Positions 402-63,111 are shown, counted from the first letter of the whole stretch. The stretch: DNA of 63,950 nt, filler included, from Collodictyon triciliatum (GCA_043381765.1; 28 parts of 28 records of this genome joined end to end with filler, not necessarily neighbours in it); one strand, 5' to 3'. The notes: generated from the sequence alone by a model not told the origin. Made by a program: numbers and translations.

Positions 402-1780
402 TTTGTGTTAGTCAGAGAAACTTTATATTGCTGGTCCTGACTGCTGTGGGAATCACCCTTTTTATCTCCGGACTCTTTCAAACTACTTACAGAACTTCTC
501 ATCAAAGAGGAGAGTTGGTTCAAAAGTACAATCGAATCGTTAAGGTAAGCGACAGTTTGCTATGTATTTCTGATATTCTGTGTTTTTTTTCTGAATTCCT
601 TTCTTTTACAGGAATGGGAAAGCACTTACAAAAATCAGCTACAAATTCTCGAACGAGTCTCCTTACACTACGAAAATAGAACAATATGCTTACTTGAGCG
701 ATCAACTTATGTAACAACCCATCTTATTTCTGTTTTTTTTTTCTTACGTTATATAAACGCCTCGAATAAAACATCCCAGTTTTGATAATAGCAGAAAAAT
801 GTGTGCGTGTAAAAGAAAGAAAGAATGAAAGAAATGGCAATATTCTCACCCAAAAATGGCATGGTATGATTTGAAATATAGGCAGATAATATCGCTGAGG
901 ACCACGATGACGTATTTGTATACAGCCCTTTCAAGTTTGTCGGTAGAGTCGATGCCGGATTAATAGAGACTTCATTGGATCCATTCGAGCAAGTAAGCAT
1001 ACAATTAACAATCCAGTACCAACACGGTTTTCCAACGATTATCCTTACTATTTTTCGGTTATGCATATTATTTTATGGCATCTTATTATATTTTGGTGTG
1101 ATATACTTTGAATCAAATAAAGGGGAAAAAATATCTTGGTGTGATACTTTAGGTAAAGACTTCAATAAGGATTCGTGATAAAGAAAAATCTACAAAGATT
1201 CGCCTGCCCATGTTTTCATATGTTCGCTCACGAGTGGTGGAAGCTGCTGATTGGAAAGGTCATAAGCATCCTTTTATTCGTACTGTATGCTATCCTCCCA
1301 TTTCAATCATTATTTATATGCCAAAAATAATGATAAATTTTTTTGTATTCCTTGAATATGGTGATGCAATATTCAGACTGTTTCTACACTCTGCGGGGCA
1401 CTACATTTATGGCTGACCAAACTTGCCGAGTACACGAGGTATACAATTGTTTATTCCGTAAATTTTCGATGGTTTTCTTCGTTCCTTCTGGGCATTATTT
1501 ATTATACATGTCTGTATCACCTTTTTTTCCCGTACTATTGTGGAATGTTTATCCTTCATATTCAATGGTTTGTATGACATAACCTCGCTACACTTTGAAT
1601 CGAATAAAGGGGAAAAAAGCATTCATATTCAATGGTAAAATGTATGAAAGCATAGTAGATATTCATAAATCTTTCTTACAAAATTGATAAATAGATATTG
1701 GACTCTATATGCATCAAAGTTAGTGTTGGTCGCCATAGCCAACGATATCGAAAGGATTGGTCCTCCGATACTCGATTGTA
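402..1780 (+). CDS. Spliced hypothetical membrane protein (fragments, boundaries approximate)
   Basis: Exon-like blocks bounded by AG/GT: hydrophobic FILLVLTAVGITLFISGLF..IVK|gtaag, ADNIAEDHDDVFVYSPFKF..EQ|gtaag, DCFYTLRGTTFMADQTCRVHE|gtatac and ILDSICIKVS. No family recognised. Confidence 0.4.
1088..1146 (+). mobile_element. 27-nt LINE 3'-tail micro-insertion with 16-bp TSD
   Basis: atattttggtgtgata (1088-1103) + tactttgaatcaaataaaggggaaaaa + atatcttggtgtgata (1131-1146). The insert matches the LINE 3' end at 55302-55325 (minus). Confidence 0.75.
1555..1636 (+). mobile_element. 52-nt LINE 3'-tail insertion with perfect 15-bp TSD
   Basis: ttcatattcaatggt at 1555-1569 and 1622-1636 flanks ttgtatgacataacctcgctacactttgaatcgaataaaggggaaaaaagca, which is near-identical to the reverse complement of 55301-55348. 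Confidence 0.85.
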
Positions 1781-4298: not shown

Positions 4299-4974
4299 TG
4301 GCCTCTGTCTCGTCCCTATGCTATCCTGTCTTTTATTTATATATAATTATTTTTTTTTTATTGCTGTGTAGATAAAGGAATATGTAAATTGTGCAAGAAA
4401 AAGAAAAAGAAAAAGAAAAAGAAAAAGAAAAAGAAAAAGAAAAAGAAAAAGAAAAAGAAAAAGAAAAAGGAAAAGAAAAAGGAAAAGAAAAAGAAAAAGA
4501 AAGGAAAGAGTGATAGGGATGATAGGATCTCTGTGGAAGGTGACCCATGTGTGTTTGTGAGTATCATATNNNNNNNNNNNNNNNNNNNNNNNNNNNNNNN
4601 NNNNNNNNNNNNNTTAATTAATTAANNNNNNNNNNNNNNNNNNNNNNNNNNNNNNNNNNNNNNNNNNNNATGAACTTTGTTTAACGAAGGAGAAAATTAT
4701 AAAGACGAGAAAACCTCGGTGTTACGATTCCCTGGTGCGCATTTGTGAATATATCCGTGGGTCGGCTGTTTTGAAGGAATGTTAATGGAGAAAAGCAATG
4801 CCTTCCTTTTTATTTTTCACCCTTATATATATACATATATATGAAGAACAAAATTCAACAACCAGAAGTCATGCCATCTCCTCATTTAATAATAAGGATT
4901 TGAAGCAAGAAGCGGAAGCAGAGAGAACAAAGAACAGAAGAGATTGAAAAATAAGGGGAAAACGGTTTCGGTAC

Positions 4975-9510: not shown

Positions 9511-10554
9511 CTTTTGCTGAAGAGCAACAAAACACTCTTTCCGTTGAGATTTGGGTCTTCCAACAATGTAAATAATTCATACAAAGCTGTTGAGATTTGT
9601 GAAGCATTTGATATATCAAACATGTACTAAAAAATAACATTTTTTAGGTACAGAAAATCTAATCAGAACGGTTTCGAATTCTTATGATAAAATTGTTCGT
9701 ATGTGACATAAAATGGCTTTTCTTTTTCTTTCTTCCGTTACAGAAATATTCTCCTTTTGAAAAACATAATCTAATGTATGAGGAATGAAAGAATATGGTA
9801 TACATACAATAACGCATTTTGCGTTGGTGTAATATCTTGGCCAAACTTGCACAAAGGAGCCACCAAGCTCGCGGACAGGAATCGACTTTTTCTTGTAGAC
9901 AATCTGCTCAATCTCTACACCTATCTGGATGATAACAACGAGAATAAGGTAAGAGAAGAATTGGAAATGTATCCAATTAGAAATATTTATCAAGATAAAT
10001 CTATTTATTTGTAAGAAATCATCTTTAAATCGAATAAAGGAATTTTTTTGGAAGAAATCATAAAACTGCTTCTGTCTGGTAAAATGACAAACTGTCGGAG
10101 ACGTGTCTACAAAGTCAGGTTCCACTCCGGTATTTGCATAAGCTGTTCGAATGTCCAAAAGATTTCAAGAAAGTAATTGAATAGAAAACTACGCCAGAAT
10201 TATTTACAACTGTATCAACAGGTATGAGAGGGAAAAAGCAAATGCAACCACAACACATAAATCCAAAACGAGAGAAAGCTAAGAAAATATTGATGAATTC
10301 AGAAAAGAAAAGAAAAAGGAAGCATATGAATTAAAAAAAATAAAAATCAGCTGATTTTTCAGTTCGTTTGGAGGCTTTTGGGATAGTATAGTTCTTACTA
10401 ATTTTTTTATTAATACGTTTACTGAAAAAAGCAAAATACTTCTGGGTATTGTTGAGAATAATTGCAGACCGACGATTCTTTTGAGCAGAAGAGACTTTCC
10501 TGACCCACTCGGGCCGATGATCAGCACTTCTCCAGACGCTCTTTCAGCCGCCAT
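9511..10554 (-). CDS. ARL16: Arf-like small GTPase ARL16, spliced, 3'-partial
   Basis: MAAERASGEVLIIGPSGSGKSLLLKR (P-loop), IPVRELGGSFVQVWPRYY (ELGG replaces DxGG, typical of ARL16) and FDISNASQISTALYELFTLL..SVLLLFSK. Confidence 0.8.
10004..10061 (+). mobile_element. About 20-nt LINE-tail micro-insertion with imperfect TSD in an ARL16 intron
   Basis: tttgtaagaaatcat (10008-10022) + ctttaaatcgaataaaggaa + tttggaagaaatcat (10047-10061). Confidence 0.65.
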
Positions 10555-10839
10555 GGCAAAATGCTGCCTTCTAAAGAAAAAGAAAGGAAAGAAAAGTGCA
10601 TCTCTCTTTAATTTTGAAATAAATTGAATAAAATGAAGAAAAGTAAAAGCAAAACGGTGTGGAAAGGTGGTATTATCCTTGGGAAGAGACGCCGCCTTTC
10701 TCTTTATTCATTTCTTTTTTGTGTGTGTTTTTTGTGTTTTTTGTGTTTTTTTGTGTTTTTTTGTGTTTTGTTTTTTGTTTTTTGTTTTTGTGCTTTTTTG
10801 TGTTTTGTTTTTTGTTTTTTGTTTTTGTGCTCTTGTGTG

Positions 10840-11565
10840 CCAATATTTCTCAACCGAATCCCCATTGCTGAAGATATCATATCCAAAGAGCAGATATGCT
10901 TTATGAACGGAAGGAACATATGTGAGTTTGGCTAGCGAACCAAAGCCAGCATCTCCACCATCCTGCACAACATTGAAAGGAAGAATAAAATAAAAAAATG
11001 AACGGAAGGAACATCGACACAAACATATGGGTTGTCAACAAAGAGTACATGGAATATCAAGTAAGCGGGACACCCCGCGCTATGATTTTCTACGACCTGG
11101 AGAAAGCATATGACTATGTGAACCACGAAGCACTGGAAACCATCCTACACAAAAGAGGCTTCTGTACCGGATTCACCAGTCTTATCAAGAAATTGCACGA
11201 CAATGCAACAGCGAGGGTACTCACGGCACACGGACCTACGGATGCAATTCAAAGACAGAGCGGGGTGTATCAAGGCTGCCCACTTGCACCACTGCTCTTC
11301 AACTTTGTCGCTGACTGCCTTGCAAACCACTTCCGAAACGAAAACAAGGTACGCAACCAACTGCTACTTCAATATGCAGACGACACAGCATTCATCTTGC
11401 GGTCTCCCGAAGGCGCCACACTCGCCAACAAATGCATGCAAGAATACACACGAGCTGTCGGCGGGAAAATCAACTATGACAAGACAGATGGAATTCTTTT
11501 TGGGTTTCAGGATGGACTGATGTTTCCAGGAAACATTGTGTGGAAGTCACCGTCACATCCACTCA
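10840..11565 (+). mobile_element. Non-LTR retrotransposon reverse transcriptase fragment (L1-like), interrupted by a short insertion
   Basis: IISKEQICFMNGRNI|DTNI..IFYDLEKAYDYVNHEAL..GVYQGCPLAPLLFN..LQYADDT..GGKINYDKT. Confidence 0.93.
10903..11014 (+). mobile_element. 78-nt poly(A)-tailed element (family B) with perfect 17-bp TSD, nested in the RT ORF
   Basis: atgaacggaaggaacat at 10903-10919 and 10998-11014. The insert ends catcctgcacaacattgaaaggaagaataaaataaaaaa and is homologous to 26308-26396. Confidence 0.88.
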
Positions 11566-23435: not shown

Positions 23436-25288
23436 ATTGGCCCAACAGAGCCCATCTTGTGCCAACCTGGAAAAGAGACGGTTGTTGGGCCACACGACTC
23501 GCTCATACCAAACAATTCGTACAAAGGAATTCCCTTTTTACGCATAAAAAGTATGAAATATTCATATTTTAGCCTCTATTCGTGTATATTTCGTTTTTGA
23601 TTGAATACCAGTGGGTCATTATTTGGGGTAAAAGATAATACGGGCAATACTTTTGTAATCCCACCGTAATCCATATGAAAGACCCTTACCAAACTCATGA
23701 AATACTCGAATGTAGAATGGCTTGTTGGTGCTGCGCCAGTCATAAGATAGCGGCATCTGTCGAGTCCAAGTGCCTCTCGGATCTTCGAATAGTTGTAAAA
23801 GTATCAATGATATGTATTTCATTATTCTTCTGGCAGGATGTGATTATTTTTCTAATTACAGAACATAGCCGAAAATTTAGGATGATAGAAAATTAGGCCA
23901 AAATATAAGGGGGTTAAAAAAAGTGTATGAGTTAAATTGCACCTTGAAGAATAGAGTCTTTTGTAACACATCAAATGCCATTCCTGGTTCGTTATTGTTC
24001 ATAACTCGATAGGATCCTTCTAATCCTTTCTTTTTTGCCCAGACGGATATTTTCCTCATTACTAGGTGATACCAACGTATTATTCTTTTTAGAGATGTTC
24101 AATGTCAATTAAAGTAATAAGTGCTCTTTATATCTCAGTGCTTCATTCGGCATACTTCCACGTCTATTTGCACCAGCGGCCTTCAAGGCAGACTCTATTT
24201 TTTCATAAACGCGTGGAACACCAATAAATACTGTTGGACGTACTTCTCGGAGTGTCTGTGCAAAAAGTACTGGGATGTCAGTGAAACAATATCTAAAAAA
24301 TATCTACACAAATAATAGATGACAAAATGACAAAATGACAAAATGACAAAATGACAAAATGACAAAATGACAAAATGACAAAATGACAAAATGACAAAAT
24401 GACAAAATGACAAAATGACAAAATAAATGAACATATGAAAGAATAACTAATTTTTCATGAAAATTATATATGAAGCACACGACAACTTATCGTTATAACA
24501 CGTACATTAACCAATCCTCCCTTCAAGGCATCTGGTGTAGCAAAGAATACTTCGCTCCCAGAGAATGCAGGTAAAAATAGACCAGCCATTTGCTCTGCGA
24601 CGTGACTGGGAATATATGTTACGTTGAATTCGTTTTCATTAATCCTTACTTGATAATCAGATAGACATTGATTGCTAATATATCACTTTCAAAAAGAAAA
24701 TTTATTTCAAATAAGTCGTAGTGTTTCTTATTCTTCCTTTCAATTTTGTGCAAGATGGTGGGGATGAAATCTTAGTATATCTATAGAACCTTAGAGGAAG
24801 ATAACTAACAGTTGAGTCAGTACTACTAAATCGAATCAAAGAATGGCCCGATTTGAGAATCCAACATATGTTTCTATGCGTAAGCATCACACCCTTAGGA
24901 TTTCCTGTGGTCCCTGAAGTATAAATCAGTGAACAAACATCACCAAGAGCGATTTTTTCTATTCTCTGGCGCAATTCAATGTCTTGTATCTAATTAATTA
25001 CAATTCTATCAGTTATTTACTGGACTGTTTATAAAGGAAGAATAAGGGCAAAAATTCCTCGGCTGTTTATCAAAAGCCTGTTCTACATAATGTCAAAAAT
25101 TGTAGCATCTAGTCGATGCAATTCACAAAATCACCTCTGTGCTCATACTCATAAATCTATTCCATGGGATTGCCCACCCATCTGGGTCTACTGTATCATC
25201 CATGAGCACAACTACCTTCACTTTGGTGAGTTGGGTGCGAATATATTTGAACTTTGCCAATTGTGAGAGATTCTCCACAAAAATTAGC
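23436..25288 (-). CDS. ACSBG: Long-chain fatty-acid-CoA ligase (ACSBG/bubblegum-like), internal exons
   Basis: AMP-binding motif [69 protein letters not shown] and [17 protein letters not shown]. Confidence 0.92.
24728..24766 (-). mobile_element. 39-nt family-B tail insertion in an ACSBG intron, with decayed TSD
   Basis: ttattcttcctttcaattttgtgcaagatggtggggatg is the reverse complement of the family-B 3' end. Flanks aagtcgtagtgtttct and aaatcttagtatatct match at 12 of 16 positions. Confidence 0.7.
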
Positions 25289-25361: not shown

Positions 25362-25411
25362 ATTCAAGATAAAGACTTTTTTCCTTTATTCGATATTCAA
25401 GATAAAGACTT
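25362..25411 (-). mobile_element. 16-nt LINE-tail micro-insertion with perfect 17-bp TSD
   Basis: attcaagataaagactt at 25362-25378 and 25395-25411 flanks ttttcctttattcgat (reverse complement atcgaataaaggaaaa). Confidence 0.75.
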
Positions 25412-43544: not shown

Positions 43545-43616
43545 TTCCGTTACCGGGAATCGAACCCGGGTTGTATGGGTGAGAGCCATACGTGCTACCG
43601 ACTACACCATAACGGA
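43545..43616 (-). tRNA. tRNA-Glu (anticodon CTC)
   Basis: TCCGTTA TGGTGTAGTCGGTAGCACG TATGG CTCTCAC CCATA CAAC CCGGG TTCGATT CCCGG TAACGGA A. It has a 7-bp acceptor stem, A and B boxes, and a downstream TTTT terminator. Confidence 0.95.
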
Positions 43617-45290: not shown

Positions 45291-46324
45291 ATCCAAAAAA
45301 TCCAAAAAAGAAATATATTAAATAACTTAATTAATATATAAATTAACGAGTACACAGATAAACAAATACATTAATAAAAATACTCACTCATGATAAAACC
45401 ATTCCCAGATGCCAATCACATCGCTTCGAGAAATAAAGTTACTTCGAAAGATTGACCATCCAAATATTGTCAGGCTTATTGATGTTGTGGTCGGGCTGGA
45501 TTTGGATAGGTAGGCAGTACACCCACGGTTATTTATAAATATACGTTCTATGATACGTAAAACATTGCTTTAAAGGCCAAACAGTTTAGTAATATTATGA
45601 TTTTTTATGGTAAAACAGTAATATTGACACTGTAATCTGATAGTGTCTTTCTGGCTTTCGAGTATTGCGAACATGACCTATCTTGCTTGTTGGATACGAT
45701 GAAAACTCGATTTCTGGAAGCTGAAGTAAAGAGTTTGGTCCTCCAGCTCCTGAATGCTGTTACATATCTGCATGCTAATTGGATTATTCATAGGTACAAC
45801 TATGCAATTTCCTTTTCCATTTAAGTAACTCAAGATTAGTTCTATACTTTTTTTTTCATTCATTCGAATATTAGTTCTATAACTTACAACTGTATAAAAT
45901 AAATCTCTTGATTTACTATTTTTGTATTATTCTTTATCATCGCGCATCATTAATTTGTATAACTAAACCAATTTGAATCTAGGGATATAAAGATGTCCAA
46001 TTTGTTATACACCAACAAGGGGCTTTTAAAATTAGCAGACTTTGGACTTGCTCGGACATATGGGAGACCTTTACAACCAATGACTCAGAAAGTTGTTACG
46101 TTGTGGTATTATCAAATCATTAATTTACCTTTATATTATCTTAAAAATGCCAAAAGTAATTCAACATACCTCTTTCGAATAATATATATATTTTTCTCTC
46201 GATTTAGCGTAATCCTCTATAATATAGTGTGAATATGTAAATCCTTACACAAAAAAAATACAGGTATCGAGCACCAGAGCTTCTTTTGGGTGTGGAAAAG
46301 TATACTACCGCAATTGACATGTGG
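44392..46324 (+). CDS. CDK10: Cyclin-dependent kinase 10 (CDK10/11 group), spliced, 3'-partial
   Basis: [98 protein letters not shown]. Confidence 0.9.
45835..45881 (-). mobile_element. 23-nt degenerate LINE-tail micro-insertion with 12-bp TSD in a CDK10 intron
   Basis: attagttctata at 45835-45846 and 45870-45881 flanks a T-run plus cattcattcgaat. The reverse complement attcgaatgaatg-An resembles the tail aatcgaataaagg-An. Confidence 0.55.
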
Positions 46325-48170
46325 TGAGGATGATTTTCTTTAAATCATTTGCTGAACAAACAAATACAAACAAAAAACAAACAAAAAACAAACAAAAAAC
46401 AAACAAAAAACAAACAAAAAACAAACAAAAAACAAACAAAAAACAAACAAAAAACAAACAAAAAACNNNNNNNNNNNNNNNNNNNNNNNNNNNNNNNNNN
46501 NNNNNNNNNNTTAATTAATTAANNNNNNNNNNNNNNNNNNNNNNNNNNNNNNNNNNNNNNNNNNNNCAATGTTGCAGGTTCTATCTGGGATATCGACCTG
46601 AAGGGAGTATGTTGGCCGTGTACCATCTCGTATGTACGTGTGCCTACATGTAGTAGAGTTGCAGAGTTTAGATGTGTTTGTAATTATTATATCATGTATT
46701 TTTTCGGAAAGGAAGTGATGAGACGCCACACGATGCCCTTCTTATGGCTTTTCTGCAAGTGTGTTTCATTCAGAGCTTCAGAATTATGGGCGCTTGAATT
46801 TGTGTTGTAAGCCTCTCCATCTGCGCACATCACTGCACGACTCGTTTTATTCCAAGATTAATGAAAATATAGCGTGTTGTTTTAGACACCAAATTGTTTT
46901 AGTTTGTCAAGAATGGTTTTTCTTACGAGAATAAAACTTATTCCAAAGTTGCATTCCATTATTTCTGTCAACGGGAAACCCTGGCTGGTATAAGGTTAAC
47001 TTTTTAAATTTTTTAATTTAAATTGGAGTAGCTGTACAATCGCGGAGCCTTTAAAAGAAGGATTTTGGGAAACTACCAGGTCTTTGCAAGCTTTCTAGAA
47101 ATATCTGTTCGGTTAGACGTCATGACAAGAATGGGGTGGGGACTGTGCAGGCGAGTGTGCTGGATTTTTGTGAGTGTCTTGCATAATTTTTATATGCTAA
47201 GTGAATGCGCGTGACAGAACACACAAAAAGAACGACGCGGCTGCGTAAGGGACATAGATACTTATAAGTGTTGTTAGGGGTGGGACTGACTGTCGAAAAA
47301 GAAAAAAATAGTTGAACAAATCAGATTGATACTTGTTTTTAATTAAAAAAAAACTTGCCTGGTAGTAAATGTTTAGTTCCGACCTGACATCAATATATGG
47401 ATACAAGTGAATGCGTGTTTTAATTCAGCCATTGTCCTTTCGTGTTGTTGGTAGCAGCATGCCTCCCAATTTAACGGATATTTCGTAGTGATTGCTATGG
47501 TTAATGTAATTTGCGATTAATGAATTTCAATAAGTAATTAATTATCATTTATATATTTGCTGCTTTTACTTTGTGCAGGATGGGCGGCGTTGCCCTGGTT
47601 CGCTAGCCTTTATTTGGACTAACATCACTTGGACATGTCGGCGCGCAAGTAAATATCTATCGATTAATTATCATTTTATACACCCATTTCATTTTTTGGA
47701 TTATTTATCAAGAATATCTCCTAAATTTTCTATGCCTTATTTTTTTACCAGTCGGTTTTTTTTTTTTCAATATGAATTTGGGTGCAATCGAATGGGTTGT
47801 ATCTCACGCGTGAACACTAAAATATCTTACTAAATCATTTCCAACCCAACTGCACACTCGCATCGATTATGACGTGAAATCCAATAAATTGGTATTGAGC
47901 AAATGGCGGGATAAATGCATTTTTTTCAAGGAGCTCATCCCATTCGACCAGACAGACCAGTTAAGATTCTCCATTGTACGACTGAAGGTATTAAGTTTTT
48001 TTTTTTACACCAAAGACGGTCTAACACACTCAACTGTCCGCATTTTCTCGATGACTATTCCATATTCCAAGCTGTTTCGATATGAAATCACCAGTCCGAA
48101 TCATTACATACTGTAGAAAATGAGTCGATGAGCCGATACTATAGGTATTATTGACCCGCCGATAGTCAAA

Positions 48171-48460
48171 AGCTGGAAGCACGCTCGCATTCTTCGCTAC
48201 TCTGACCACAAGCGAAGGGAGATGTGGGAATGTGTCGTGCGATATCTCCCACAGCATATCCAACCCCCGCTATCCACGCAACCAATCAACCACTTGGGAC
48301 GCCCACCTGACCAACTCGCTATCACCGATTTCATTCCAGTGCTACCCTCTCCACAGTAGTGTCTTCTCCTACTCACGTTTGTTCTGTCTCATGCGCTCCT
48401 ATCTCGCCTCTTGTATGGCACAACCTTGTTGCGCTATGAATCGAATAAAGGGAAGTAGTG
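48171..48460 (+). mobile_element. 5'-truncated LINE: ORF2 end and 3'UTR
   Basis: ARILRYSDHKRREMWECVVRYLPQHIQP..GRPPDQLAITDF..* followed by tgaatcgaataaaggg. Homologous to 55302-55590 (minus). Confidence 0.85.
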
Positions 48461-49842
48461 AAAAAAAGGAGGGTTATGTCGAGATATGCAAATAAGATGG
48501 GCTTCACAAACAAAAACAAAAAAATGCATTCTAATTAAAAAAAAAGATTTATCAACTCGCTTCAAACCTGAACCAAGTCGTGTCATTATGATGTAAAAAA
48601 AATTATAATGGCGCTTGCAAAGATTCCATCACACATAAACCACCGATTTGTTGAGATTGTGGTATCTCATAGGAATTATAATCATTCAGAAATGCCAATA
48701 TGTGCATTAAATATAACTACCATCATTATCACTCACTGCTGTGCGTTATGCTCTGTTCATTTATGCATCTTTCATATTTTTGTTANNNNNNNNNNNNNNN
48801 NNNNNNNNNNNNNNNNNNNNNNNNNNNNNTTAATTAATTAANNNNNNNNNNNNNNNNNNNNNNNNNNNNNNNNNNNNNNNNNNNNATAAAATAAAATAAA
48901 ATAAAATAAAATAAAATAAAATAAAATAAAATAAAATAAAATAAAATAAAATAAAATAAAATAAAATAAAATAAAAAAATAAAATCGCAGATGCAGACGA
49001 CACTGGAGCAGGCCTTTTTCTACTTCAGGCACCAGCAGGAGGCAGAAATGGAGCACAGGTACCGCTCGAACCAACAACCGAAAGCCAAAGGAAGTAAAGG
49101 CGATGACAGATGACAGATGGCAGAGGACAGAGGACAGATGTTTATGGAGATATACCAAACAAGGGTGTACTTGCAGGGAGGCGCTACAGGTAGATAAAGA
49201 GGGGGAAGATGAGGAGAAGGAGCCGCACAGCCCATGCGCAGCCGCCCCGAACACCCGGAAAGCGACGGCGTTGGATTTGCTGGCGCACACGTTGCCGCTC
49301 ATTGTCCGGGCGCTGTCATCCGTCCGCCGCCACTCACCTCCTCCACTTCTAACTCTGCCACCGCTTTGCTTTTGCTTTTGCTTTTGCTTTTGCTTTTACT
49401 TTTACTTCGGCTTCTTTGCTCTGTGATTTGTCAACTGCCTAGTTGGCCTGGCTGTGCGAGTCTATGGCTGTATTTCGCTCGGTGTGTTGCTCTGGTCCAG
49501 TCTATTTGTGGGTGATGTGTTATCACGTATGGGGAGCGGTTACATCCTTTATCTTTTTTCCGGTTGTTTTTGTTTTTCTATTTGTCTTTTTTTTTTGTTG
49601 CCATTTATTTACTTATTACTATTGCTGGGTGGGTTGTGGTTGGATAGCCTGCTGCGCATTCGGCCACACGCTTCTTTTATGGAGTCTGATGATATGGTCA
49701 GCAACACTTTTTTTTTGTCTTGCGTCCTGGCTGATTGGTGAAATTGATGGCGCCTGTGTTCTGTGTGCGATTGTGGCAGGCAAGTGTGAGGTTGTTGCTT
49801 GATAATGATCTTGATTACTCCTATTCAATGAGGAAAATTAAT

Positions 49843-49902
49843 ATATTTGAAACATAATGTTTGAATCGAATAAAGGAAAAAAAATATTTGAAACATAATG
49901 TT
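49843..49902 (+). mobile_element. About 22-nt LINE-tail micro-insertion with perfect 19-bp direct repeat
   Basis: atatttgaaacataatgtt at 49843-49861 and 49884-49902 flanks tgaatcgaataaaggaaaaaaa. Confidence 0.85.
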
Positions 49903-51204
49903 ATTTTGTGATTATTTGTGCATGAACGTATATTTGCTCTACGTCTGTGTAAGACTAAATGTATTTGCATCTCGTATATGACACAAGCCGAGCCAATGAC
50001 ACAGAACCAGGAATAGCAATTGTTGCATAATGTTTAAGTCATAGAGTACAAAGCAATTAGTCTTGCCCTTTCATCTACATATGCGACAGTTGGGAAAATA
50101 GAAAAATGGAAACGGAAAAGACTTTGTGAGGGTGTCAATAGCTGTGATGAATGAAAAAATAAAAGCCTCACCCCTTCGCTGTCATGATACGCAGTGTCAC
50201 GTACTTTCGATAGATGGAATTAAATGCCGTCTATGACTAAATCATGAACTACTAAAGGTACCGTCCTATATTCTGCCGATTTTTCCATACCTTTCTTTGT
50301 TGGCTTAAAGAATGACATAGCCTGCTGAAATTGTCACAGTAGTTTATTCATATAAAAGGAATAGTATATGTCACTTTGCACTCCTTTTTTTTTTTACCGC
50401 TTACTGATAATAGTATTTCCTTCTATATTTACTTATCTTCTTTTTTTTTATTCTAAAAATCTTAGCTATTGAGCCCGTCTCAACAATCTTTCATTCAACC
50501 ATCAGGCAAGTAGTTCCAAAGTAGGTGGTGATGTGTGGGAGATAGAAAAAAGAAAATCAGGGATAAAATAAAGAAAAAAAAAGGGAAAAGAGATGTCCTT
50601 GAGGCTTGATAAGAGACGCATGGATTTCTTTTGGGGACGCGTGATAGTGTCCCGCGAGCATGAGAAAAAGGGAAAGGCGATATTGATTGGATGGAGGAGG
50701 GGGAATACTGCTTTGATGGCGCAAGGTGTCGAAAAGGATGGTGAAAAGAGAAGTGAGGTTCGTTTGATAAGCATTAGGTCGAGTGCAAAGAGGAATTCTC
50801 TGCATGGTTGACTCACCTCCTTCCAGACCGTATTTGTGTCTTTTCAGTAGGGGTTGTCGAAGGGATTTCTCCCTCTTGCTAGCAAAAGAAAACCTATGGC
50901 TATAAGCACCCACTCCCTGGTGTCTCTCTCAACCAAGGTCGGGAGTTGTGGCTTTGTTACCGCAGGTCATGCAAGTGGATTTGGTCAGCTATTCAGGACT
51001 CACGCGTCATGAGGTGTTAGCTGCCTGCAGTCTCCCGGCTCAGGAAGTCTGTTAATGGGTTCGTTTGGGGTAGGGTATGGGTATGGTGGTCGGTATACCC
51101 ATAGNNNNNNNNNNNNNNNNNNNNNNNNNNNNNNNNNNNNNNNNNNNNTTAATTAATTAANNNNNNNNNNNNNNNNNNNNNNNNNNNNNNNNNNNNNNNN
51201 NNNN

Positions 51205-53355: not shown

Positions 53356-55301
53356 CATTATCATTATCATTATCATTATCATTATCATTATCATTATCAT
53401 TATCATTATCATTATCATTATCNNNNNNNNNNNNNNNNNNNNNNNNNNNNNNNNNNNNNNNNNNNNTTAATTAATTAANNNNNNNNNNNNNNNNNNNNNN
53501 NNNNNNNNNNNNNNNNNNNNNNTTATTTTGCTTTATCCGAAGATAGGCCGTTTCATTTCGCTGACAACCATGGACATTTGTCTTTCCCCTCGAGAGTATT
53601 TTTTTTCTTTGTGATTGAATAATATTCTTTTTCTCCTTAATCGAACAGCTAAATTCAACGGAGATGAATGGTTCCCGTTTCACTTTTGGTTCATCATCTT
53701 CGAACTTACATATTCAATTCCGGAAAAAAAAGAATGATGTGAAATATGTGGTTTTTATTCATTTTTAATTAAATCAGAAGTCATATCATGATATCTCATG
53801 CTATGCTATTGCAAATTAAACCATATGGGTCGCATTTGTGTTATTTTTTTTTTAAAAGAACCTACATGTGAGTAACCTACAATTGAAGAGGTTTTCCAAA
53901 TATATATATGCGTATTTATTTGATGTAGTCGAGTGTGTATATTTGTTGCATTGTCAGCAGTTTAAATGTTTGTCCGGCGCATGAAATTCAGTCACAATTT
54001 TATAACCTTTCCCAACAGATAGTCTTTTTATTCTTCCTTTCTATTTGTACAAACATGACTGACTGATAGAAAAGTTCTATCCAACCAAATGTTCCCACAG
54101 GATAAGCACCAAAAGGGACAGTTTTATATTCTTTGTTTTTAAGAGACGGAGATACCACTTAAGTCAGGTGGCATTATTGCGGACATCAGTAATCGTTCTC
54201 AACTCCCTTAGAAATGCAATTTATTAAGACATTCCAGCGAAAACTAGCAAGGGTTATCAACACATTGCCTACAACTGTGCAATCGAATCGAACAGCTTGT
54301 GTTGGTGCCTTGAAAGATTCGTATGATTTGACTAATATCTTAATCAAAGAGATAAAAAAAAAGAATCGACGACAATAATGGTGTACATTTAAATTATGTT
54401 GCTTTTAATTGATTGAACGTAGCAGGTTTTTTTTTTTTTTAGTTTTTTTCTTTGGTTTCATTTCATGTTTGCTGAAGAAAACAAAGCGGAGGAGACCGCC
54501 TTCGCCTTTAGGACAAAGACGAGATACGGACGAGACAGTGGAAAACTTGAGCATTGTGCAGTTGGAGTTTTTTGTTTTGGGGGAAAGAAAAATTCATAGA
54601 TAGAAAGTGATGAATGGGAATGTAAGAAAAGATAAATCGGAGTGAAATAGAAAGGTGACATAGTGTTTTTTTTTTTCCATTCAAAGTGAGACGAAGTGTT
54701 CTTAAACATAGACTATTCTCCCTGAAGTGGTTTACATCCAACGCGGTTTGAAGATTGTTACGCACAGGCGCCAACATCTAAGTTTGTCGTGAATTAAAAA
54801 AAAAAAACAATCCAACACGGTTTCAAACTGTATTCGAGACTGACAGAAGAGCGGATAAAGTTGTCGGGTCGATAAAAGTTCGCACAAATCATACTTAAAA
54901 ACGTTTTCAGAAAGTTTTTTACCTGTCTGTGTCAGACAATTATTATATTCTTCAACGCAAGTGCCATTTAAGTTCAGACGATGATATAGAAGAACAAGTA
55001 GTGGTGTGTTTTGAGCAAGAGATTGAAAGGTAAAACAAAAACCATGGATTTTCTTCATGCCTGGTTATGTTGTAGTTAGTACAGTAGTACAATTATTCGC
55101 AATTATGCCAGAAGGAATCCTCTAGAAGTTGAAAAAGGACTTTGTCTATGTTTTCTATGTCGTGTGCAAGGTATTTCATTTGCGGTAAATTTTTTGTGGA
55201 ATGTCTATTTTTTACATGTTTTGTTTCCTGTAGTTATTTGTTCGGATTACCACATCTAAAGTTTTATCAACCCCATTTTTTTTTTTTTGATGTATATACA
55301 C

Positions 55302-55740
55302 TTTTTTCCTTTATTCGATTCAAAGTGTAGCCAGGTTATGCCATACAAAGGGGCGGGATGGGAGCGCATGGGAGAGAGCAAACGTGAGTAGGAGAAGACA
55401 CTACCGTGGGGAGGCTAGCACTGGAAAGAAATCAGTGATAGCGAGCTGGTCAGGTGGGCGACCCAACTGGTTGATTGGCAGCGTGGGTAGCAGTGGTTGG
55501 ATATGCTGTGGGAGATATCTTACGACACATTCCCACATCCCTCTTCGCTTGCGGTCAGAGTAGCGAAGAATGCGAGCGTGTTCCAGCAGGCTGTTCAAGA
55601 AGCTGTATTGCACGAGGCTCTCTAGCCTGGATACATTGATTTCTCGTTCGGGTGAATCATTGGAGCGAGAGAATGCACGCACACTCCATAAGGCCCACAG
55701 CATATGTCCCCTTGTGACTGTCCAGAGTATTCTAGAGTCG
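55302..55740 (-). mobile_element. LINE 3' end: ORF2 C-terminus, 3'UTR, AATAAA and short poly(A)
   Basis: The ORF ending ..LWALWSVR..HARILRYSDRKRRGMWECVVRYLP..ASPR* (stop at 55401) is followed by ..gctacactttgaatcgaataaaggaaaaaa. Confidence 0.85.
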
Positions 55741-58259: not shown

Positions 58260-59970
58260 AAAAAAAGTGGTGAGGCTATCAGGATTGAATATATCACACC
58301 AGCCTTGTTTGAAGTGAGTCTTTTCTTTAAAAGAAAAAGAGAAAGAAAATACCAAATGCAGGACCAAAGCCAGGACCAAAGCCAGGACCAAAGCCAGGAC
58401 CAAAGCCAGGACCAAAGCCAGGACCACCTGGACCAAAGCCTGGGCCACCAGGAGGATTTCCCGGTGGATGACCAGCACCGTGCTGATGGGCACTGTTTCA
58501 ACATAAGCAGTTCGTATGAATATTGAGAATGATTCCGAATATTCTGCGTACTGGTAAAAAGAAGATAATAATGGAAAATATCTCATTTGTTGATTGTGTA
58601 ATGAAAGGCTACTCGTTTCGTTCCCTGGCGGTCTTGTAAATGTGATAGAAGATTACGCCTGCAAGAACCCAGAACAATATGTCGCTGAAAGATATCGAGT
58701 TGCTTTTTTGGTAGCTTCCATCTAATAGTTCAATGAAAAACATCACATATCAAAGTATAAGTTTAAATAGTGCAACAGCTGACGAAATCGGCTTCTATCT
58801 CCATAATCATCACTGATTTTATTGCATATATCCTTAGAGTAAACTTGCAACGAATAAAGGGGGGGAAACTTTATCATAGACAAGAATCATCAGTGGTGAA
58901 ATTTCATTAAATTTGGAAATATGATTCCATCTTCTATCTATTTCAATTGAAATATAAGGGATATATTCATATAAAGAGTTGTTTGATAATCTTGAGAATG
59001 AAAAGAAATTGCAAAGTATTTTGTGGGCCTGTTTCTGTACATGGAGATGATCCCCGATTTCCTTCAAGTGTGTATTCAAGAGCACAACTTCCATCCAGAA
59101 CAAACCTGTATGAACAGATAAACGTACTTTTAGAGGATAAGTCTGACTTTGAGAAAAGGCATTATTTGACGTAATTAATCTTTGTAAATCGTAAAGTAAA
59201 AGAACAGTGCGGTAGATGTGTATAAGGATGCGACATACGGGTCGTTGGGGTCATTGTAACCCTCACAATTCACTTCAATGTGACCAAAGCTTAAGCCTTC
59301 GGGAAGATTCGCTTCGCACTTCCATTGCGGATCGCCTGTAATGTAATAACGATTGCAACAATTATAAAGATATGCATAGAGTCAACTGATAAATGAACAA
59401 AAAAAAAAAAAAAGTCGGTGGTGAGATATCCGCTAATGTATTTATAATCTAGGAGGTAGGAAGTGATTGGGTGTTGTATTTTTATCTACTTTTCTCACAA
59501 AAAGTAAAGTATATTAACTACCTCGAGAATTTGATCCGACTCTTTCACAGTGAGCAGTATAAATGTCCTGATTGCATCCAGCCGAACCACCGACACAACG
59601 CAACTTTTGTAATGATGTAGCAAGTGAGATAAAGACAAAATAAGGCATTTGTTCAAGACAGTTTTATATGTAAAGTTGTTTTCACTCTAGAATATATATG
59701 TTGTAAATTATCACATAGCTACTGCATCTACCAACTTATTCCGTCATATATAGCATAACATGGATTGTCAATTTTCTGTGATGAAAAAAAGGACATGCTC
59801 TTGCACAAATGAAGTTGTATATACAGTAAATGAAAATACCTGCTCTACAGGGGAGGTTCTTCTGCCTGTCGTCATTTTGTTCTTCCATTTGAATATTTCA
59901 ATAAATAAAAAAATAAAAAAATAAAAAAAAATTATTCTTCCTTTCAATTTTGTGCAGGATGGTGAAGAAA

Positions 59971-60709: not shown

Positions 60710-62567
60710 ATTCCTTATGCAAGCAAAGACCAGATTGTTGCTTATGGCGATATTTATTTCAAAGCCTGGTCCGTTGCTTCAGGCCCTTACTTGACAAAAA
60801 TAGGTAACTGTAGTTTATTTCTGTTCACAATAAACTCAAATGGAAAATGGAAAATATATCAATGCCATTGAACACGTACTTTTAGAGCGCCACTGCATCC
60901 AAGATATCATGTCACATGCCGTTCATGCATCGTCTACTGCCCTTTCTTCTAAACTCGCACGTTTCATGGGATGCTTGCATAAGCAAAGGGGATACAAAGG
61001 AGTAATAACTATAGCTATCGATATTATGAACAAAAGAATCTCGTTGAAATGGATGATATATGTAATGAATTAAACACTCAAGAGGCGTTTACGCACTTTT
61101 TCTTTCCACTTATATTTTAAGGGGATTAGTATAGACTAAATTGTGTAAATATCTGGCCCTTTCTTAATTGACAGTTGGATGAAATGCTGTCTCGTTTGTA
61201 TGAACCTATCTTATGGAGATCACTCAAGGTTGCCAACCCGCTAGGTTAACTTTGCTTAAATTCAAAAAAAAAAAATTAATGCATTACAGTAATTGAAAGC
61301 TGTTTTATTTTCTCCTTATACGATTCAAAGTTTGGTTATTTTGTTTTATTTTATTTAGTTCGAAAGAATGCCGCTGTTCTTTTGGGTGATGCATTTCCCC
61401 TTCAAGATTTGGATGATAACCTCGCAAACTTGGACTCTCAGATGCAAAGACAGCTGGGATACATGCAAGCCCTCCTAGACGACGATGTTGTGATTGTTCG
61501 GTCGACTGGCGTTCAAGGTACTAATTTAATCACGCTTCATCGATTAATTATGATGAATGAATGTGAACTTTTGTAAAGCCATATTATTTTAAAAGTTTTT
61601 GAAGTGGAGATATTTCAATGTATTTAATGATTACTGCTACATACATAAAGTAATTTGCCGTTCTTTGGGAATCTTCTGGGAGCTTATCCCTATGCAGCTG
61701 ACCAAACTGATAATGACAAAGCTTGCATGTGATATTGCATTTGATAGCAGGTATCTTCAAAAAGTATTTGCACAAAATGAGAATGAGAAATAGAATCAAT
61801 GTGCTCTTTCATCATATGCTGGAAAAATGTACTTTTCCATTCACTTTGACTGTTCTCTTATCTCCTCTCTTTCTTTCATTTCTTTTTTAAGCTCTGCACT
61901 AGTCCGAGCTTCTGTTATAGAAGGCTTCACATATTTGCTCCACAACAGACTTTGTCACCCTTCGCTGAAAAGTACATTATAATACTGATTCTGAACTCCT
62001 TTTTTTCCTTTTCCTTTTCATTTTCATTTTCATATTCATATTCATATTAACATTTTGCATAAAATATCAATAGTTTTGCTCCCGCATTTGAAAAATCTTA
62101 TTCATGACACATCTGAGCGCGTTCGACGAAATTTTGTTGATTTACTTATCAAGATTAAAGGTTTTTGGGAGAAATAAAAGCACATGTGGTTTATTTTTTA
62201 TTTTTGTCTTGTATTCTATTTTATCCTGTTTGTTTAAAAAAATGATTTGGTTTCAGGTGCAAAGTCTATAAGATTCTTTGACATTGTGCCTGTTGACCAA
62301 CTGCTTATCAGACTAGCTATTGAAAGTGAGAGATTGCATCAACAAACATCTCATATATATTCAACATCCCTTGATGATACATTTGCATCACTCTTACTTC
62401 TACAAACAACATGCTATTAATGAATTTTAGGCCGAGATATAGCTATCAAGATATCGCTGCTGCTATCAAACTCCCTGTTTCCTGAATCATCATCGTTAAG
62501 TTCGCTTATTGAGAGATGTATAAGGCTTTTGGAAATGAACCACCGGGCAGCGTTTGTGTTTTATAGG
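60710..62567 (+). CDS. NCAPG2: Condensin-2 complex subunit G2, internal exons
   Basis: YGDIYFKAW, CIQDIMSHAVH, LDEMLSRLYEPILWRSLKVANP|VRKNAAVLLGDAFPLQD, ICRSLGIFWELIP, IHDTSERVRRNFVDLL and IRFFDIVPVDQLL. Confidence 0.92.
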
Positions 62568-62691: not shown

Positions 62692-63111
62692 NNNNNNNNN
62701 NNNNNNNNNNNNNNNNNNNNNNNNNNNNNNNNNNNTTAATTAATTAANNNNNNNNNNNNNNNNNNNNNNNNNNNNNNNNNNNNNNNNNNNNTTTGTTTTT
62801 TTGTTTTTTTGTTTTTTTGTTTTTTTGTTTTTTTGTTTTTTTGTTTTTTTGTTTTTTTGGGCTCCGAAATCTGCGAGGTAAAAGGTAGCCTCACAATCGA
62901 CCAAGAGAACAACGTCGAGACCCAAACAAAGTCGACAAACCTTTCGTTGAGCGCCGCATTTTCCTCCAAGTCTCAACTCGCTCGCAGGCGCTCTGACCTT
63001 CTCTTGTCTCTCTTTCGTCCGGTATGATCGGTGTTGTCGGCGTGGGAGTCATTCAAATGAATTCACAGCAGAGCACCAAAGAATATTACGGGCGCGATCA
63101 CGACAAACGAC

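What the first reader, a model, noticed from the sequence alone, without database searches (positions are those of the whole stretch)
49843..49902. Frequent micro-retroposition: 16-52-nt LINE 3'-tail insertions with full-length TSDs
Seen: the last bases of the LINE 3'UTR (TTGAATCGAATAAAGG-An, defined by the long copies at 55302-55740 and 48171-48460) recur alone between 12-19-bp direct repeats. Cases are 1088-1146, 1555-1636, 10004-10061, 25362-25411, 45835-45881 and here, where about 22 nt sit between perfect 19-bp repeats; 61301-61352 is a weaker case. That is about six events in 61 kb, with variable 5' ends, a shared 3' end and both orientations, mostly in introns. Known: 10-20-bp TSDs, a 3' A-tail and 5' truncation are hallmarks of target-primed reverse transcription by APE-type LINEs. 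Inference: reverse transcription here often aborts after only a few tens of nucleotides, through a low-processivity RT or host restriction, leaving scars often no longer than their own TSD. Standard repeat annotation would miss them, and they carry AATAAA into introns.
Basis: partly seen in the sequence, partly recalled or inferred. Interest (0 to 1): 0.75.

Follow-up and report, generated by a model that had tools for sequence, protein, structure and literature searches.

The report
Tiny LINE-tail insertions with target duplications
Six or seven very short pieces (about 12-41 bases plus a few A's) of the end of an L1-like jumping gene sit between duplicated target sequences, so they are real but extremely stunted retrotransposon insertions, an extreme case of a well-known process.

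Summary
At 49843-49902 a 22-nt LINE tail sits between perfect 19-bp direct repeats, and the five other listed sites have the same anatomy. The 14-mer occurs 10 times at up to 2 mismatches, against 0.62 expected. Six of 20 motif hits carry a flanking repeat of at least 10 bp, against 0.38 expected, P about 1e-6.

The source element is an L1-like LINE with endonuclease, reverse transcriptase and zf-RVT, shown through relatives. Extremely 5'-truncated target-primed reverse transcription is the best reading.

- **The window is not contiguous.** It is 28 unrelated 2.2-kb unplaced contigs joined by spacers.
- **The shared 3' end may be internal.** The two long copies run 8-19 nt further before their last A-run and form a hairpin there. 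The micro-copies may be primed at an internal A-tract.
- **It is not one family.** A second poly(A) retroposon shows TSD-flanked inserts of 78, 94 and 112 nt; one splits an RT reading frame exactly at its duplicated target.

No genome is held and no empty site was found, so frequency and cause of truncation stay untested. This is a known mechanism in an extreme form.

The parts
49843..49861 (+). TSD copy 1 of the given site (19 bp)
   Evidence: Identical to 49884-49902. P(repeat of at least 19 bp) is about 0.001 at random places.
49862..49883 (+). 22-nt insert: 15 nt of LINE-A tail plus A7 (the A-run is 8-9 if the first A of the TSD is counted)
   Evidence: 23 of 23 identical to the long copy at 55302-55740; sequence read.
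49884..49902 (+). TSD copy 2 of the given site
1088..1150 (+). Micro-insertion. The insert is at 1110-1130 (14 nt of LINE, GGGG variant, A5-6). The TSD is 22 vs 20 bp with 1 mismatch and a 2-nt indel. There is a 5-nt microhomology (ACTTT) with the LINE at the 5' junction.
1555..1636 (+). Micro-insertion: a 52-nt insert (1570-1621) between 15-bp perfect TSDs. The tail has the GGGG variant, then A6, then G.
   Evidence: (40 of 42 identical to the long copy)
10003..10061 (+). Micro-insertion: a 19-nt insert (10023-10041) with a TSD of about 20 bp (18 of 20 identical). The A-tail is only 1-2 nt.
25362..25411 (-). Micro-insertion: a 16-nt insert (25379-25394) between 17-bp perfect TSDs. The TSD starts with AAGT.
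   Evidence: (18 of 18 identical)
45835..45881 (-). Micro-insertion: a 23-nt insert (45847-45869) with a diverged tail and A9, between 12-bp TSDs.
61301..61352 (-). Weak, older candidate micro-insertion: a 30-nt insert with a diverged tail between 11-bp A/T-rich repeats.
   Evidence: 3 mismatches to the 14-mer
55302..55740 (-). Long LINE-A copy: the ORF2 C-terminus (55407-55739) plus a 3'UTR of about 100 nt. It is cut by the contig end at 55740.
55276..55329 (-). 3' end of that copy. The predicted hairpin is at 55297-55329, with the motif and the A6 tract in its loop and 3' arm. Ten more bases and an A13 run follow.
   Evidence: (-8.4 kcal/mol, z -3.77, 1 of 200 shuffles as good).
48045..48467 (+). 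Second long LINE-A copy. It has an internal deletion of about 435 bp that removes the zf-RVT region. The hairpin equivalent is at 48432-48460 and an A7 run follows at 48461-48467. No TSD was found.
10903..11014 (+). Family-B retroposon tail: a 78-nt insert with an A-rich tail between 17-bp perfect TSDs. It interrupts a LINE RT reading frame, and the TSD encodes the duplicated residues MNGRN.
26290..26409 (+). Family-B retroposon tail: a 94-nt insert with an A10-11 tail between 13-bp TSDs.
47537..47676 (-). Diverged family-B-like insert of 112 nt between 14-bp repeats.
50578..50675 (+). Candidate third retroposon tail: 76 nt followed by an A-run, between 11-bp A/G-rich repeats.
   Evidence: Metagenome contigs show variable A-run length at 50664 and a loose end running into poly(A).
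10998..11564 (+). L1-like RT fragment (RVT_1), 35% identical to P0010. It runs off the contig end.
8721..9217 (+). L1-like endonuclease (APE) fragment in two frames.

Best explanation
These are genuine retrotransposition events of an L1-like, endonuclease-type LINE (called LINE-A here) that were cut short almost at once.

The proposed sequence of steps is as follows.
1. The element's endonuclease nicks an A/T-rich target.
2. The freed 3' end pairs with an A-tract at or near the 3' end of the LINE RNA.
3. Reverse transcriptase copies only about 12-41 nt.
4. The second strand is cut 12-20 bp away.
5. The short cDNA is joined to the other target end, sometimes through 2-5 nt of microhomology.
6. 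Fill-in produces the target site duplication.

Shown: the anatomy (TSDs, A-run next to the second TSD, common 3' end, variable 5' ends), its statistical excess, and the L1-like nature of the element.

Inferred: the order of steps, which is taken from established knowledge of L1 target-primed reverse transcription, and that the shortness arises at integration rather than by later deletion. Intact TSDs directly abutting the insert argue for that.

Not resolved: why the copies are so short. Candidates are early RT stop or template switch, already-truncated RNA, priming inside a 3' hairpin, and host repair.
For: - **TSDs.** Six sites carry TSDs with exact cores of 10-19 bp that abut a LINE-A tail. 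At random places P(at least 10 bp) = 0.019. Six of 20 motif hits carry such a repeat, P = 1.3e-6.
- **Motif excess.** The motif gives 10 hits against 0.62 expected.
- **Unbiased scan.** A scan for close direct repeats (at least 10 bp, gap 8-120) gave 35 pairs. Sixteen lie in one WD40 tandem array. Of the other 19, five are LINE-A sites and three are family-B sites. The 49843 site was masked there by a spurious TRF call.
- **Element type.** The LINE-A ORF C-terminus matches proteins carrying zf-RVT. Distant full-length relatives (P0010, P0012, P0013, P0016) carry Exo_endo_phos, RVT_1 and zf-RVT. P0010 aligns to human L1 ORF2p at E = 3e-57.
- **Internal empty-site proxy, family B only.** The 78-nt insert at 10903-11014 splits an RT frame, and the duplicated target encodes a motif that relatives carry once.
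- **Nick site.** T|A at the inferred first-strand nick in 6 of 9 events, P about 0.008 against a boundary-corrected null of 0.24 that I estimated by hand.
- **Age range.** Perfect TSDs and identical inserts at 49843 and 25362 contrast with diverged ones at 45835 and 61301. This fits repeated events over time.
Against: - **No empty-site allele** was seen for any LINE-A site. The four metagenome runs laid on 48886-51104 gave no joints, and no record bridges the insert by the tool's 31-nt rule.
- **No whole genome** is held, so all counts rest on 28 short unplaced contigs.
- **A-tails are short** (1-9 nt). One site (10003-10061) has almost none.
- **The 3' end may not be terminal.** None of the 6 micro-copies carries the AGTG that follows the A-tract in both long copies. 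They are therefore not simple 5'-truncated versions of those long copies.
- **Microhomology is inconsistent.** In-register microhomology at the 5' junction is 5, 2, 1, 0 and 0 nt, with one junction unclear (read by eye).
- **Membership is indirect.** The link to L1 rests on 31% identity of the C-terminus to P0010.
Confidence: 0.85

Rival explanations
1. This is the same TPRT machinery, but the micro-copies are a distinct product class. On this reading the target primes on the A-tract inside the loop or 3' arm of a conserved 3'-terminal hairpin of the LINE RNA, not on the terminal poly(A). Synthesis then ends at or just inside the 5' arm of the stem, so the scar is essentially a cDNA of the hairpin loop.
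For: - **Long copies run further.** Both continue past the motif with a conserved AGTG before their final A-runs of A13 and A7.
- **Same hairpin in both.** The stem is 8 bp in one copy and 6 bp in the other, and 14 of 14 cells are paired. There is 1 compensatory and 2 one-sided changes, while slid controls pair in 27-69% of cells. The 55292-55334 fold has z = -3.77.
- **Micro-copies lack the 3' arm.** 0 of 6 carry it.
- **5' ends cluster.** In 5 of 7, the LINE-derived part is 12-19 nt, so it ends within a few nt of the loop/stem boundary.
- **GT after the A-run.** In 4 of 8 copies the first bases after the A-run are GT, P about 0.003 against a null of 0.085 that I estimated by hand. In two of these the GT lies in both TSD copies, as expected if the target paired with A6-GU of the RNA.
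- **Precedent.** Internal priming at A-rich tracts by L1 is documented in mammals (PMC5322556; passages read).
Against: - There are only two long copies, so the covariation shuffles are uninformative (253 of 500).
- The second copy's fold is not better than shuffles (z = -1.32).
- Two micro-copies have A8-9, longer than the A6 tract. That fits a real poly(A) tail directly after the motif, or a subfamily without AGTG.
- The 12-19-nt cluster lies just above the detection limit of the motif search. A steep random decay would look the same.
Confidence: 0.2
2. The template RNAs were already short. On this reading, LINE RNAs are cleaved or degraded to 3' fragments before or during reverse transcription. 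The RT then simply runs off the end, as proposed for short human mRNA pseudogenes.
For: - Terai et al. (PMC2831318; abstract and Results read) report hundreds of TSD-flanked human pseudogenes of 300 bp or less (the abstract says 654, the Results 645). They argue that RT processivity alone cannot explain them.
- At least two retroposon families here give short TSD-flanked copies: 12-52 nt for LINE-A, and 78, 94 and 112 nt for family B. That fits a general property of the cell or the machinery rather than of one template.
Against: No RNA data exist for this organism here; no sequencing run of the organism itself was found. The rival makes no prediction that the window can test.
Confidence: 0.25
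3. The pieces are copies of a tiny non-autonomous element, a SINE-like 'tail only' retroposon with its own fixed 5' end.
For: The 3' end is shared, and five inserts are of similar size at 16-23 nt.
Against: - The 5' ends differ at every site. The LINE-derived parts are 12, 13, 14, 15, 18, about 28 and 41 nt, and they run continuously into LINE-A sequence.
- No tRNA, 5S or 7SL-like head is present. Rfam finds only one tRNA-Glu, elsewhere in the window.
Confidence: 0.03
4. The pieces are filler DNA captured during double-strand-break repair, either by endonuclease-independent LINE insertion or by polymerase-theta templated insertion. A third possibility is chance or an assembly artefact.
For: - The inserts are very short, as filler DNA is.
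- Some targets resemble the inserted tail. TRF read 49843-49899 as a weak period-14 array.
- The assembly is from short reads.
Against: - TSDs of 12-20 bp with an A-run next to the second copy are not expected from break repair. From recalled knowledge of endonuclease-independent L1 insertion, that route usually leaves deletions and no TSDs.
- The same dispersed template is used 6-7 times in separate contigs.
- Chance is excluded at P about 1e-6.
Confidence: 0.03

Closest known systems
5'-truncated L1 insertions of mammals (Kojima 2010, PMC2912911; abstract and three passages read)
   Same: - Endonuclease-dependent TPRT.
- TSDs of similar length.
- An A-rich 3' end next to the TSD.
- Variable 5' truncation.
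- Occasional microhomology at the 5' junction.
- An L1-like ORF2 architecture in relatives.
   Different: - The LINE-derived part is only 12-41 nt, often shorter than its own TSD.
- Such copies outnumber the longer ones in this sample (6-7 against 2), although the sample is biased.
- The A-runs are very short.
- The 3' end may be an internal A-tract rather than the poly(A) tail.
Short mRNA-derived pseudogenes of 300 bp or less (Terai et al. 2010, PMC2831318; abstract and Results read)
   Same: [quoted passage not shown]
- Missed by standard annotation and found only through their TSD signature.
- The cause of the shortness is debated, between pre-truncated RNA and RT processivity.
   Different: - Those copies come from mRNAs mobilised in trans, and the novel pseudogenes have a median length of 356 bp.
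- Here the template is the LINE's own tail (in cis, or a close subfamily), and the copies are about ten times shorter.
Tailless, 3'-truncated retropseudogenes made by internal priming on A-rich tracts (Noll et al. 2015, PMC5322556; passages read)
   Same: - The retrocopy's 3' end lies at an internal A-rich stretch.
- The start of the TSD is complementary to the template.
- L1-type machinery is involved.
   Different: - Those templates are small structured RNAs (5S, U2, tRNA, Alu).
- Here the template would be the LINE's own 3'UTR.
- The evidence for internal priming here is indirect.
Heavily 5'-truncated CR1/L2-type LINEs with a 3' stem-loop recognised by their RT (recalled, not checked in any call)
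   Same: - Most copies are short 3' pieces.
- There is a 3'-terminal hairpin.
   Different: - Those clades end in short tandem repeats rather than A-runs.
- They have a different ORF2 C-terminus.
- LINE-A's relatives are L1-like with zf-RVT.

Membership tests
TPRT insertion of an APE-type (L1-like) LINE | Target site duplication of about 7-20 bp directly flanking the insert | tested here: met
   Exact cores of 10-19 bp at 6 sites, extending to 20 bp with mismatches. The random expectation for a repeat of at least 10 bp is 0.019.
TPRT insertion of an APE-type (L1-like) LINE | A-rich 3' end abutting the downstream TSD | tested here: met
   An A-run of 4-9 nt in 5 of 6 sites; 10003-10061 has only 1-2 A.
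TPRT insertion of an APE-type (L1-like) LINE | Common 3' end and variable 5' ends, collinear with the 3' end of the parent element | tested here: met
   The LINE-derived parts are 12-41 nt and all end at the same GG plus A-run. However, both long copies extend 8-19 nt further 3'.
TPRT insertion of an APE-type (L1-like) LINE | Parent element encodes an apurinic-type endonuclease and a reverse transcriptase | tested here: inconclusive
   Only the last 112 aa of LINE-A's ORF lie in the window. They match zf-RVT proteins. More distant full-length relatives carry Exo_endo_phos, RVT_1 and zf-RVT. Separate APE and RT fragments at 8721-9217 and 10998-11564 cannot be tied to LINE-A.
TPRT insertion of an APE-type (L1-like) LINE | Endonuclease target preference (T-rich | A-rich nick site) | tested here: inconclusive
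   T|A in 6 of 9 events from families A and B, P about 0.008 against my hand-estimated null. The sample is small and the boundaries are ambiguous.
TPRT insertion of an APE-type (L1-like) LINE | Empty (pre-insertion) site with a single copy of the target | tested here: inconclusive
   LINE-A: there were no joints in the 4 metagenome runs laid. Family B: the RT frame at 10903-11014 carries the target codons twice where relatives carry them once.
SINE or other unit-length non-autonomous retroposon | Fixed 5' end with an internal pol III promoter-derived head | tested here: not met
   The 5' ends differ at every site. There is no tRNA, 5S or 7SL match at these sites.
Endonuclease-independent LINE insertion or break-repair filler | No TSD, often a target deletion, 3' truncation without an A-run | tested here: not met
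   TSDs are present at all 6 sites and an A-run at 5 of 6. The defining features themselves are recalled, not checked in any call.
Stringent-type LINE with a 3' stem-loop | Conserved 3'-terminal hairpin kept by covariation | tested here: inconclusive
   The same hairpin is predicted in both long copies. One pair changed on both sides and two on one side. With two sequences the shuffles are uninformative.

The most novel reading that the evidence does not exclude
The micro-copies are not random abortive products. They would be a structure-determined class: the L1-like enzyme primes on the A-tract inside the loop of the LINE's own 3' hairpin and stops at the stem. Each misfire would leave a loop-sized scar of 12-19 nt carrying AATAAA, flanked by a full-length TSD. 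If that happens about once per 10 kb genome-wide, it would be a major and so far unannotated source of small insertions and of polyadenylation signals in this organism.
Probability: 0.15. Interest if true: 0.6.

Novelty: new member of a known kind. Interest (0 to 1): 0.35.

Why it matters
The result shows that TSD-aware searches can recover retrotransposition scars far below the size that repeat annotation reports. It also gives a lower bound on how short a completed TPRT event can be: 12 nt of template plus a few A's.

If the density seen here (about one per 10 kb, in a biased sample) held genome-wide, three things would follow.
- These scars would be a common class of small insertions.
- They would be a source of AATAAA signals.
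- They would give a natural read-out of where an L1-like RT stops on its own 3'UTR.

The mechanism itself is textbook TPRT with 5' truncation, so the value is quantitative and methodological rather than conceptual.

Tried and rejected
- **Earlier findings.** Nothing exists for this genome or for look-alikes of the LINE.
- **Metagenome contigs.** None of them has LINE-A context or an A-run with TSDs, so all are chance matches.
- **Prokaryote genome contigs.** A scan for a 20-mer gave 10 hits, all in bacterial contigs and all chance.
- **Sequencing runs.** Only freshwater, lake and subsurface metagenomes were found, each with a share of 0.18 or less, and no run of the organism itself.
- **Laying X1-X4 on 48886-51104:**
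  - There were no joints, so no empty site was seen.
  - Two 151-nt records are identical to the window (49612-49762 and 49950-50100).
  - X4 record 25 carries 4 differences in the flank and runs 18 nt into the insert. It then diverges into a T-run. That is under the tool's 31-nt bridging rule and at depth 2, so it is not counted as support for a shared insertion.
  - X4 record 26 holds 49860-49890 between unrelated flanks. It may be another micro-copy elsewhere, or a chimera.
  - An X3 record starts at 49853 with an unrelated upstream sequence. This is unexplained.
- **Taxon.** The Atlas search with the WD40 ORF gave only bacterial WD40 clusters at scores of 0.82 or less. Rfam gave one tRNA.
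- **Pfam scan.** I scanned 126 of the 246 ORFs of 75 aa or more, plus 16 of the ORFs listed at 120 aa or more and a mixed set of 14 window ORFs and 2 fetched proteins, so the three sets overlap. The remaining ORFs were not scanned.
- **TSD for the long copy at 48045-48467.** No repeat of 8 bp or more was found.
- **T-run tails.** I first read the T-runs after the tail at 10030 and in X4 as an odd 'A then T' tail. At 10030 the T-run is simply part of a longer TSD.
- **First TSD null.** It was inflated by microsatellites and was redone outside TRF arrays.

Full report
**What the window is.** The 63,950 bases are not one locus. There are 27 spacers, each made of 44 N, TTAATTAATTAA and 44 N. They split the window into 28 pieces whose lengths fall steadily from 2236 to 2217 bp, and the last piece is cut. 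Most pieces end in microsatellite arrays of about 100 bp. This is the signature of unplaced short-read contigs, sorted by length and concatenated. No whole genome is held for the window.

**The observation.** It is correct at every listed coordinate.
- At the given site, 49843-49861 and 49884-49902 are identical 19-mers. They enclose 22 nt: 15 nt of LINE tail plus A7.
- 1088-1150: insert 1110-1130; TSD of 22 vs 20 bp with one mismatch and a 2-nt indel.
- 1555-1636: 52-nt insert, 15-bp TSD.
- 10003-10061: 19-nt insert. The TSD is really about 20 bp with two mismatches, so the T-run that looked like an odd tail belongs to the target.
- 25362-25411 (minus strand): 16-nt insert, 17-bp perfect TSD.
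- 45835-45881 (minus strand): 23-nt insert with a diverged tail and A9, 12-bp TSD.
- 61301-61352 (minus strand): a weak, diverged candidate.

**Is it more than chance?**
- The 14-mer occurs 10 times at up to 2 mismatches, against 0.62 expected; 0 of 100 shuffles reach 10.
- For the TSDs I measured the longest exact repeat between the 105 nt upstream and the 45 nt downstream of the motif. I then did the same at 20,000 random places outside tandem arrays. P(at least 10 bp) = 0.019, at least 15 bp = 0.003, at least 19 bp = about 0.001. A first null that included microsatellites was inflated.
- Of all 20 motif hits at up to 3 mismatches, 6 have a repeat of at least 10 bp. The other 14 are the two long copies and 12 loose matches with repeats of 3-8 bp. 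The binomial P is 1.3e-6.
- An unbiased scan for any close direct repeats (at least 10 bp, gap 8-120, outside short-period arrays) gave 35 pairs. Sixteen belong to one WD40 tandem array. Among the remaining 19, five are LINE-A sites. The 49843 site was masked there by a spurious period-14 TRF call.

**What the parent element is.**
- The long copy at 55302-55740 (minus strand) holds the last 112 codons of an ORF plus a 3'UTR of about 100 nt.
- The ORF piece matches two database proteins that carry zf-RVT, at 46-50% identity.
- An exhaustive profile-free search with one of them found 16 relatives. Four of these are 1226-1339 aa long and carry Exo_endo_phos, RVT_1 and zf-RVT.
- One of the four, P0010, aligns to human L1 ORF2p over residues 3-871 at E = 3e-57.
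- LINE-A is therefore, by indirect but consistent evidence, an L1-like endonuclease-type LINE.
- The second 'long copy' spans about 48045-48467. It has an internal deletion of about 435 bp that removes the zinc-finger region. No TSD could be found for it.
- Separate L1-like endonuclease and RT fragments lie at 8721-9217 and 10998-11564. Whether they belong to LINE-A is unknown.

**Mechanism.** The anatomy is that of target-primed reverse transcription.
- The TSDs are 12-20 bp.
- An A-run lies next to the downstream TSD in 5 of 6 sites.
- The 3' end is common and the 5' ends vary. The LINE-derived parts are 12, 13, 14, 15, 18 and 41 nt, and about 28 nt for the weak case.
- The inferred first-strand nick is T|A in 6 of 9 events when family B is included. 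This gives P about 0.008 against a null of 0.24 that I estimated by hand to allow for boundary ambiguity.
- In-register microhomology between the end of the upstream TSD and the LINE sequence just 5' of the truncation point is 5 nt at 1088, 2 nt at 49843, 1 nt at 1555 and 0 nt at two others (read by eye). This is compatible with what is described for 5'-truncated L1 (PMC2912911, abstract) but proves nothing on its own.
- The TSDs abut the inserts and are intact. The shortness therefore arose at integration, not by later deletion.
- Perfect TSDs and identical inserts at 49843 and 25362 contrast with diverged ones at 45835 and 61301. This suggests repeated events over time.

**How strong is 'frequent'?** Two opposite points apply.
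- Against: short-read contigs can contain a multi-copy repeat internally only if it is short. Copies of hundreds of bases break the assembly; the copy at 55302-55740 runs into a contig end. The ratio of 6-7 micro-copies to 2 long ones is therefore biased.
- For: six copies under 60 nt in 61.6 kb cannot come from uniform truncation of a 4-6 kb element. That would require 400-600 copies, or 0.8-1.8 Mb of LINE, in the same DNA.
- A strong skew towards the extreme 3' end is therefore real, unless these contigs are wholly unrepresentative.

**It is not a peculiarity of one family.** The unbiased scans turned up a second poly(A) retroposon tail, called family B here, as TSD-flanked short inserts.
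- 10903-11014: 78 nt, 17-bp TSD.
- 26290-26409: 94 nt, 13-bp TSD, A10-11 tail.
- 47537-47676 (minus strand): a diverged 112-nt insert with a 14-bp repeat.
- Three shorter pieces have no clear TSD.

The first of these is instructive. It interrupts the L1-like RT frame, and the duplicated 17 bp encode residues that relatives carry once at that position of the RT. Those relatives serve as an empty-site proxy, and this proves insertion with target duplication for that event. A possible third tail lies at 50578-50675.

**A complication for the 'last bases of the 3'UTR'.**
- In both long copies the sequence continues beyond the motif. One has A6, then AGTG-type bases, ten further bases and A13. The other has GAAGTAGTG and then A7. 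Homology between the two ends only there.
- Both copies fold into the same hairpin. The 5' arm lies just upstream of the motif, the motif and A-tract lie in the loop, and the AGTG stretch forms the 3' arm. The stems are 8 and 6 bp. For the two copies the energies are -8.4 kcal/mol (z = -3.77, 1 of 200 shuffles as good) and -6.4 kcal/mol (z = -1.32).
- On the two-sequence alignment all 14 cells pair, with one pair changed on both sides and two on one side. Slid controls pair in 27-69% of cells. With two sequences the shuffle control is uninformative, at 253 of 500.
- The final A-runs lie 11 and 21 nt after AATAAA. From general knowledge, that is a normal distance for polyadenylation.
- None of the six micro-copies has the 3' arm. 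One (1555) keeps a single G after A6.
- In two (25362 and 45835) the TSD itself starts with AAGT, as if the target had paired with A6-GU of the RNA. GT follows the A-run in 4 of 8 copies, P about 0.003 against my hand-estimated null.
- This suggests priming at an internal A-tract, which is known for L1 in mammals (PMC5322556; passages read).
- Against it, two micro-copies have A8-9, longer than A6. With only two long copies, a subfamily that is polyadenylated directly after the motif cannot be excluded.
- I rate the 'loop-priming, stem-limited' variant at about 0.15-0.2.

**External checks that failed to add data.**
- A 15-mer scan of metagenome contigs returned 118 loci, all chance matches.
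- A 20-mer scan of prokaryote genomes returned 10 chance matches.
- The only sequencing runs sharing words with the contig are freshwater, lake and subsurface metagenomes.
- Laying four of them on the contig showed two 151-nt pieces identical to the window.
- No empty site and no independent confirmation of the filled site was obtained.

**Comparison with what is known.** Severe 5' truncation, TSDs and junction microhomology are standard for L1 (PMC2912911). Short TSD-flanked retrocopies that annotation misses have been described for human mRNAs, with a debate between RT processivity and pre-truncated RNA (PMC2831318). Internal priming on A-rich tracts is described as well (PMC5322556). I ran four literature searches. 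None of the listings showed a report of LINE copies of 12-20 nt as a dominant class. Those searches were not exhaustive, and I make no claim that such a report does not exist.

**Verdict.**
- The TPRT interpretation is supported at a confidence of about 0.85.
- The claims about rate, introns, orientation and the cause of abortion are unsupported or untestable here.
- It is an extreme, and possibly mechanistically informative, instance of a known process in an unannotated L1-like family.
- Interest is about 0.35.

Noticed in passing
whole window; spacers at 2237-2336, 4570-4669, ... 62692-62791: The window is 28 unplaced contigs of about 2.2 kb, sorted by falling length. They are joined by spacers of 44 N, TTAATTAATTAA and 44 N, and most contigs end in microsatellites of about 100 bp.
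   Followed up: yes
10903-11014, 26290-26409, 47537-47676(-); shorter pieces at 59932-59968(-), 24728-24766(-), 54025-54046(-): A second poly(A) retroposon tail (family B) also occurs as short inserts. Three are TSD-flanked (78, 94 and 112 nt), and three shorter pieces have no clear TSD.
   Followed up: partly
10850-11564: An L1-like RT reading frame is split by the 78-nt family-B insert exactly at a duplicated 17-bp target. Upstream the frame runs only about 17 codons before a T/G-rich microsatellite at 10711-10839.
   Followed up: yes
55297-55329(-) and 48432-48460(+): A predicted hairpin at the LINE-A 3' end has the AATAAA-containing motif in its loop. Between the two copies there is one compensatory and two wobble changes.
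   Followed up: partly
48045-48467: This LINE-A copy has an internal deletion of about 145 codons that removes the zf-RVT region. The deletion lies between two short similar peptide motifs, which suggests deletion between short repeats.
   Followed up: partly
50440-51104: In freshwater metagenome contigs this stretch has high summed depth and many variants. It looks like a multi-copy repeat. It includes a poly(A)-tailed piece ending at 50664 whose A-run length varies.
   Followed up: no
49843-49899; 26356-26415: The targets resemble the inserted tails. TRF reads the 49843 site as a weak period-14 array because the target and the LINE tail share TTTGAA...ATAA. At 26290-26409 a 10-mer of the insert recurs just after the downstream TSD. 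Whether this is chance or homology-assisted integration is unexplained.
   Followed up: no
12349-13896(-), tandem array 13002-13896: A 516-codon open frame of WD40 repeats carries a 135-bp tandem repeat at DNA level: 6.6 copies, 85% matches.
   Followed up: no
33497-34855(+): A 453-codon open frame running to the contig end has a weak DUF5906 match, the primase/helicase-type domain seen in mobile or viral elements (E = 1.4e-5, below the Pfam cut-off).
   Followed up: no
2337-4569: This contig has 58% G+C against 30-44% in the others. It has many overlapping open frames and a DnaJ_C match. It may come from another organism or from an unusual region.
   Followed up: no
37014-37171: A 74-bp unit is duplicated in tandem: 40-bp exact repeats with a 34-nt gap, then a third partial copy. 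A T9 run follows the first repeat. I did not resolve whether this is a tandem duplication or another retroposed scar with a long TSD.
   Followed up: no
1110-1130 and 1570-1621: Two independent LINE-A micro-insertions lie 490 bp apart in one contig. Both have the rare GGGG-A6 tail variant, which suggests the same source subfamily.
   Followed up: no
43545-43616(-): tRNA-Glu (CTC), the only Rfam or ARAGORN hit in the window.
   Followed up: no
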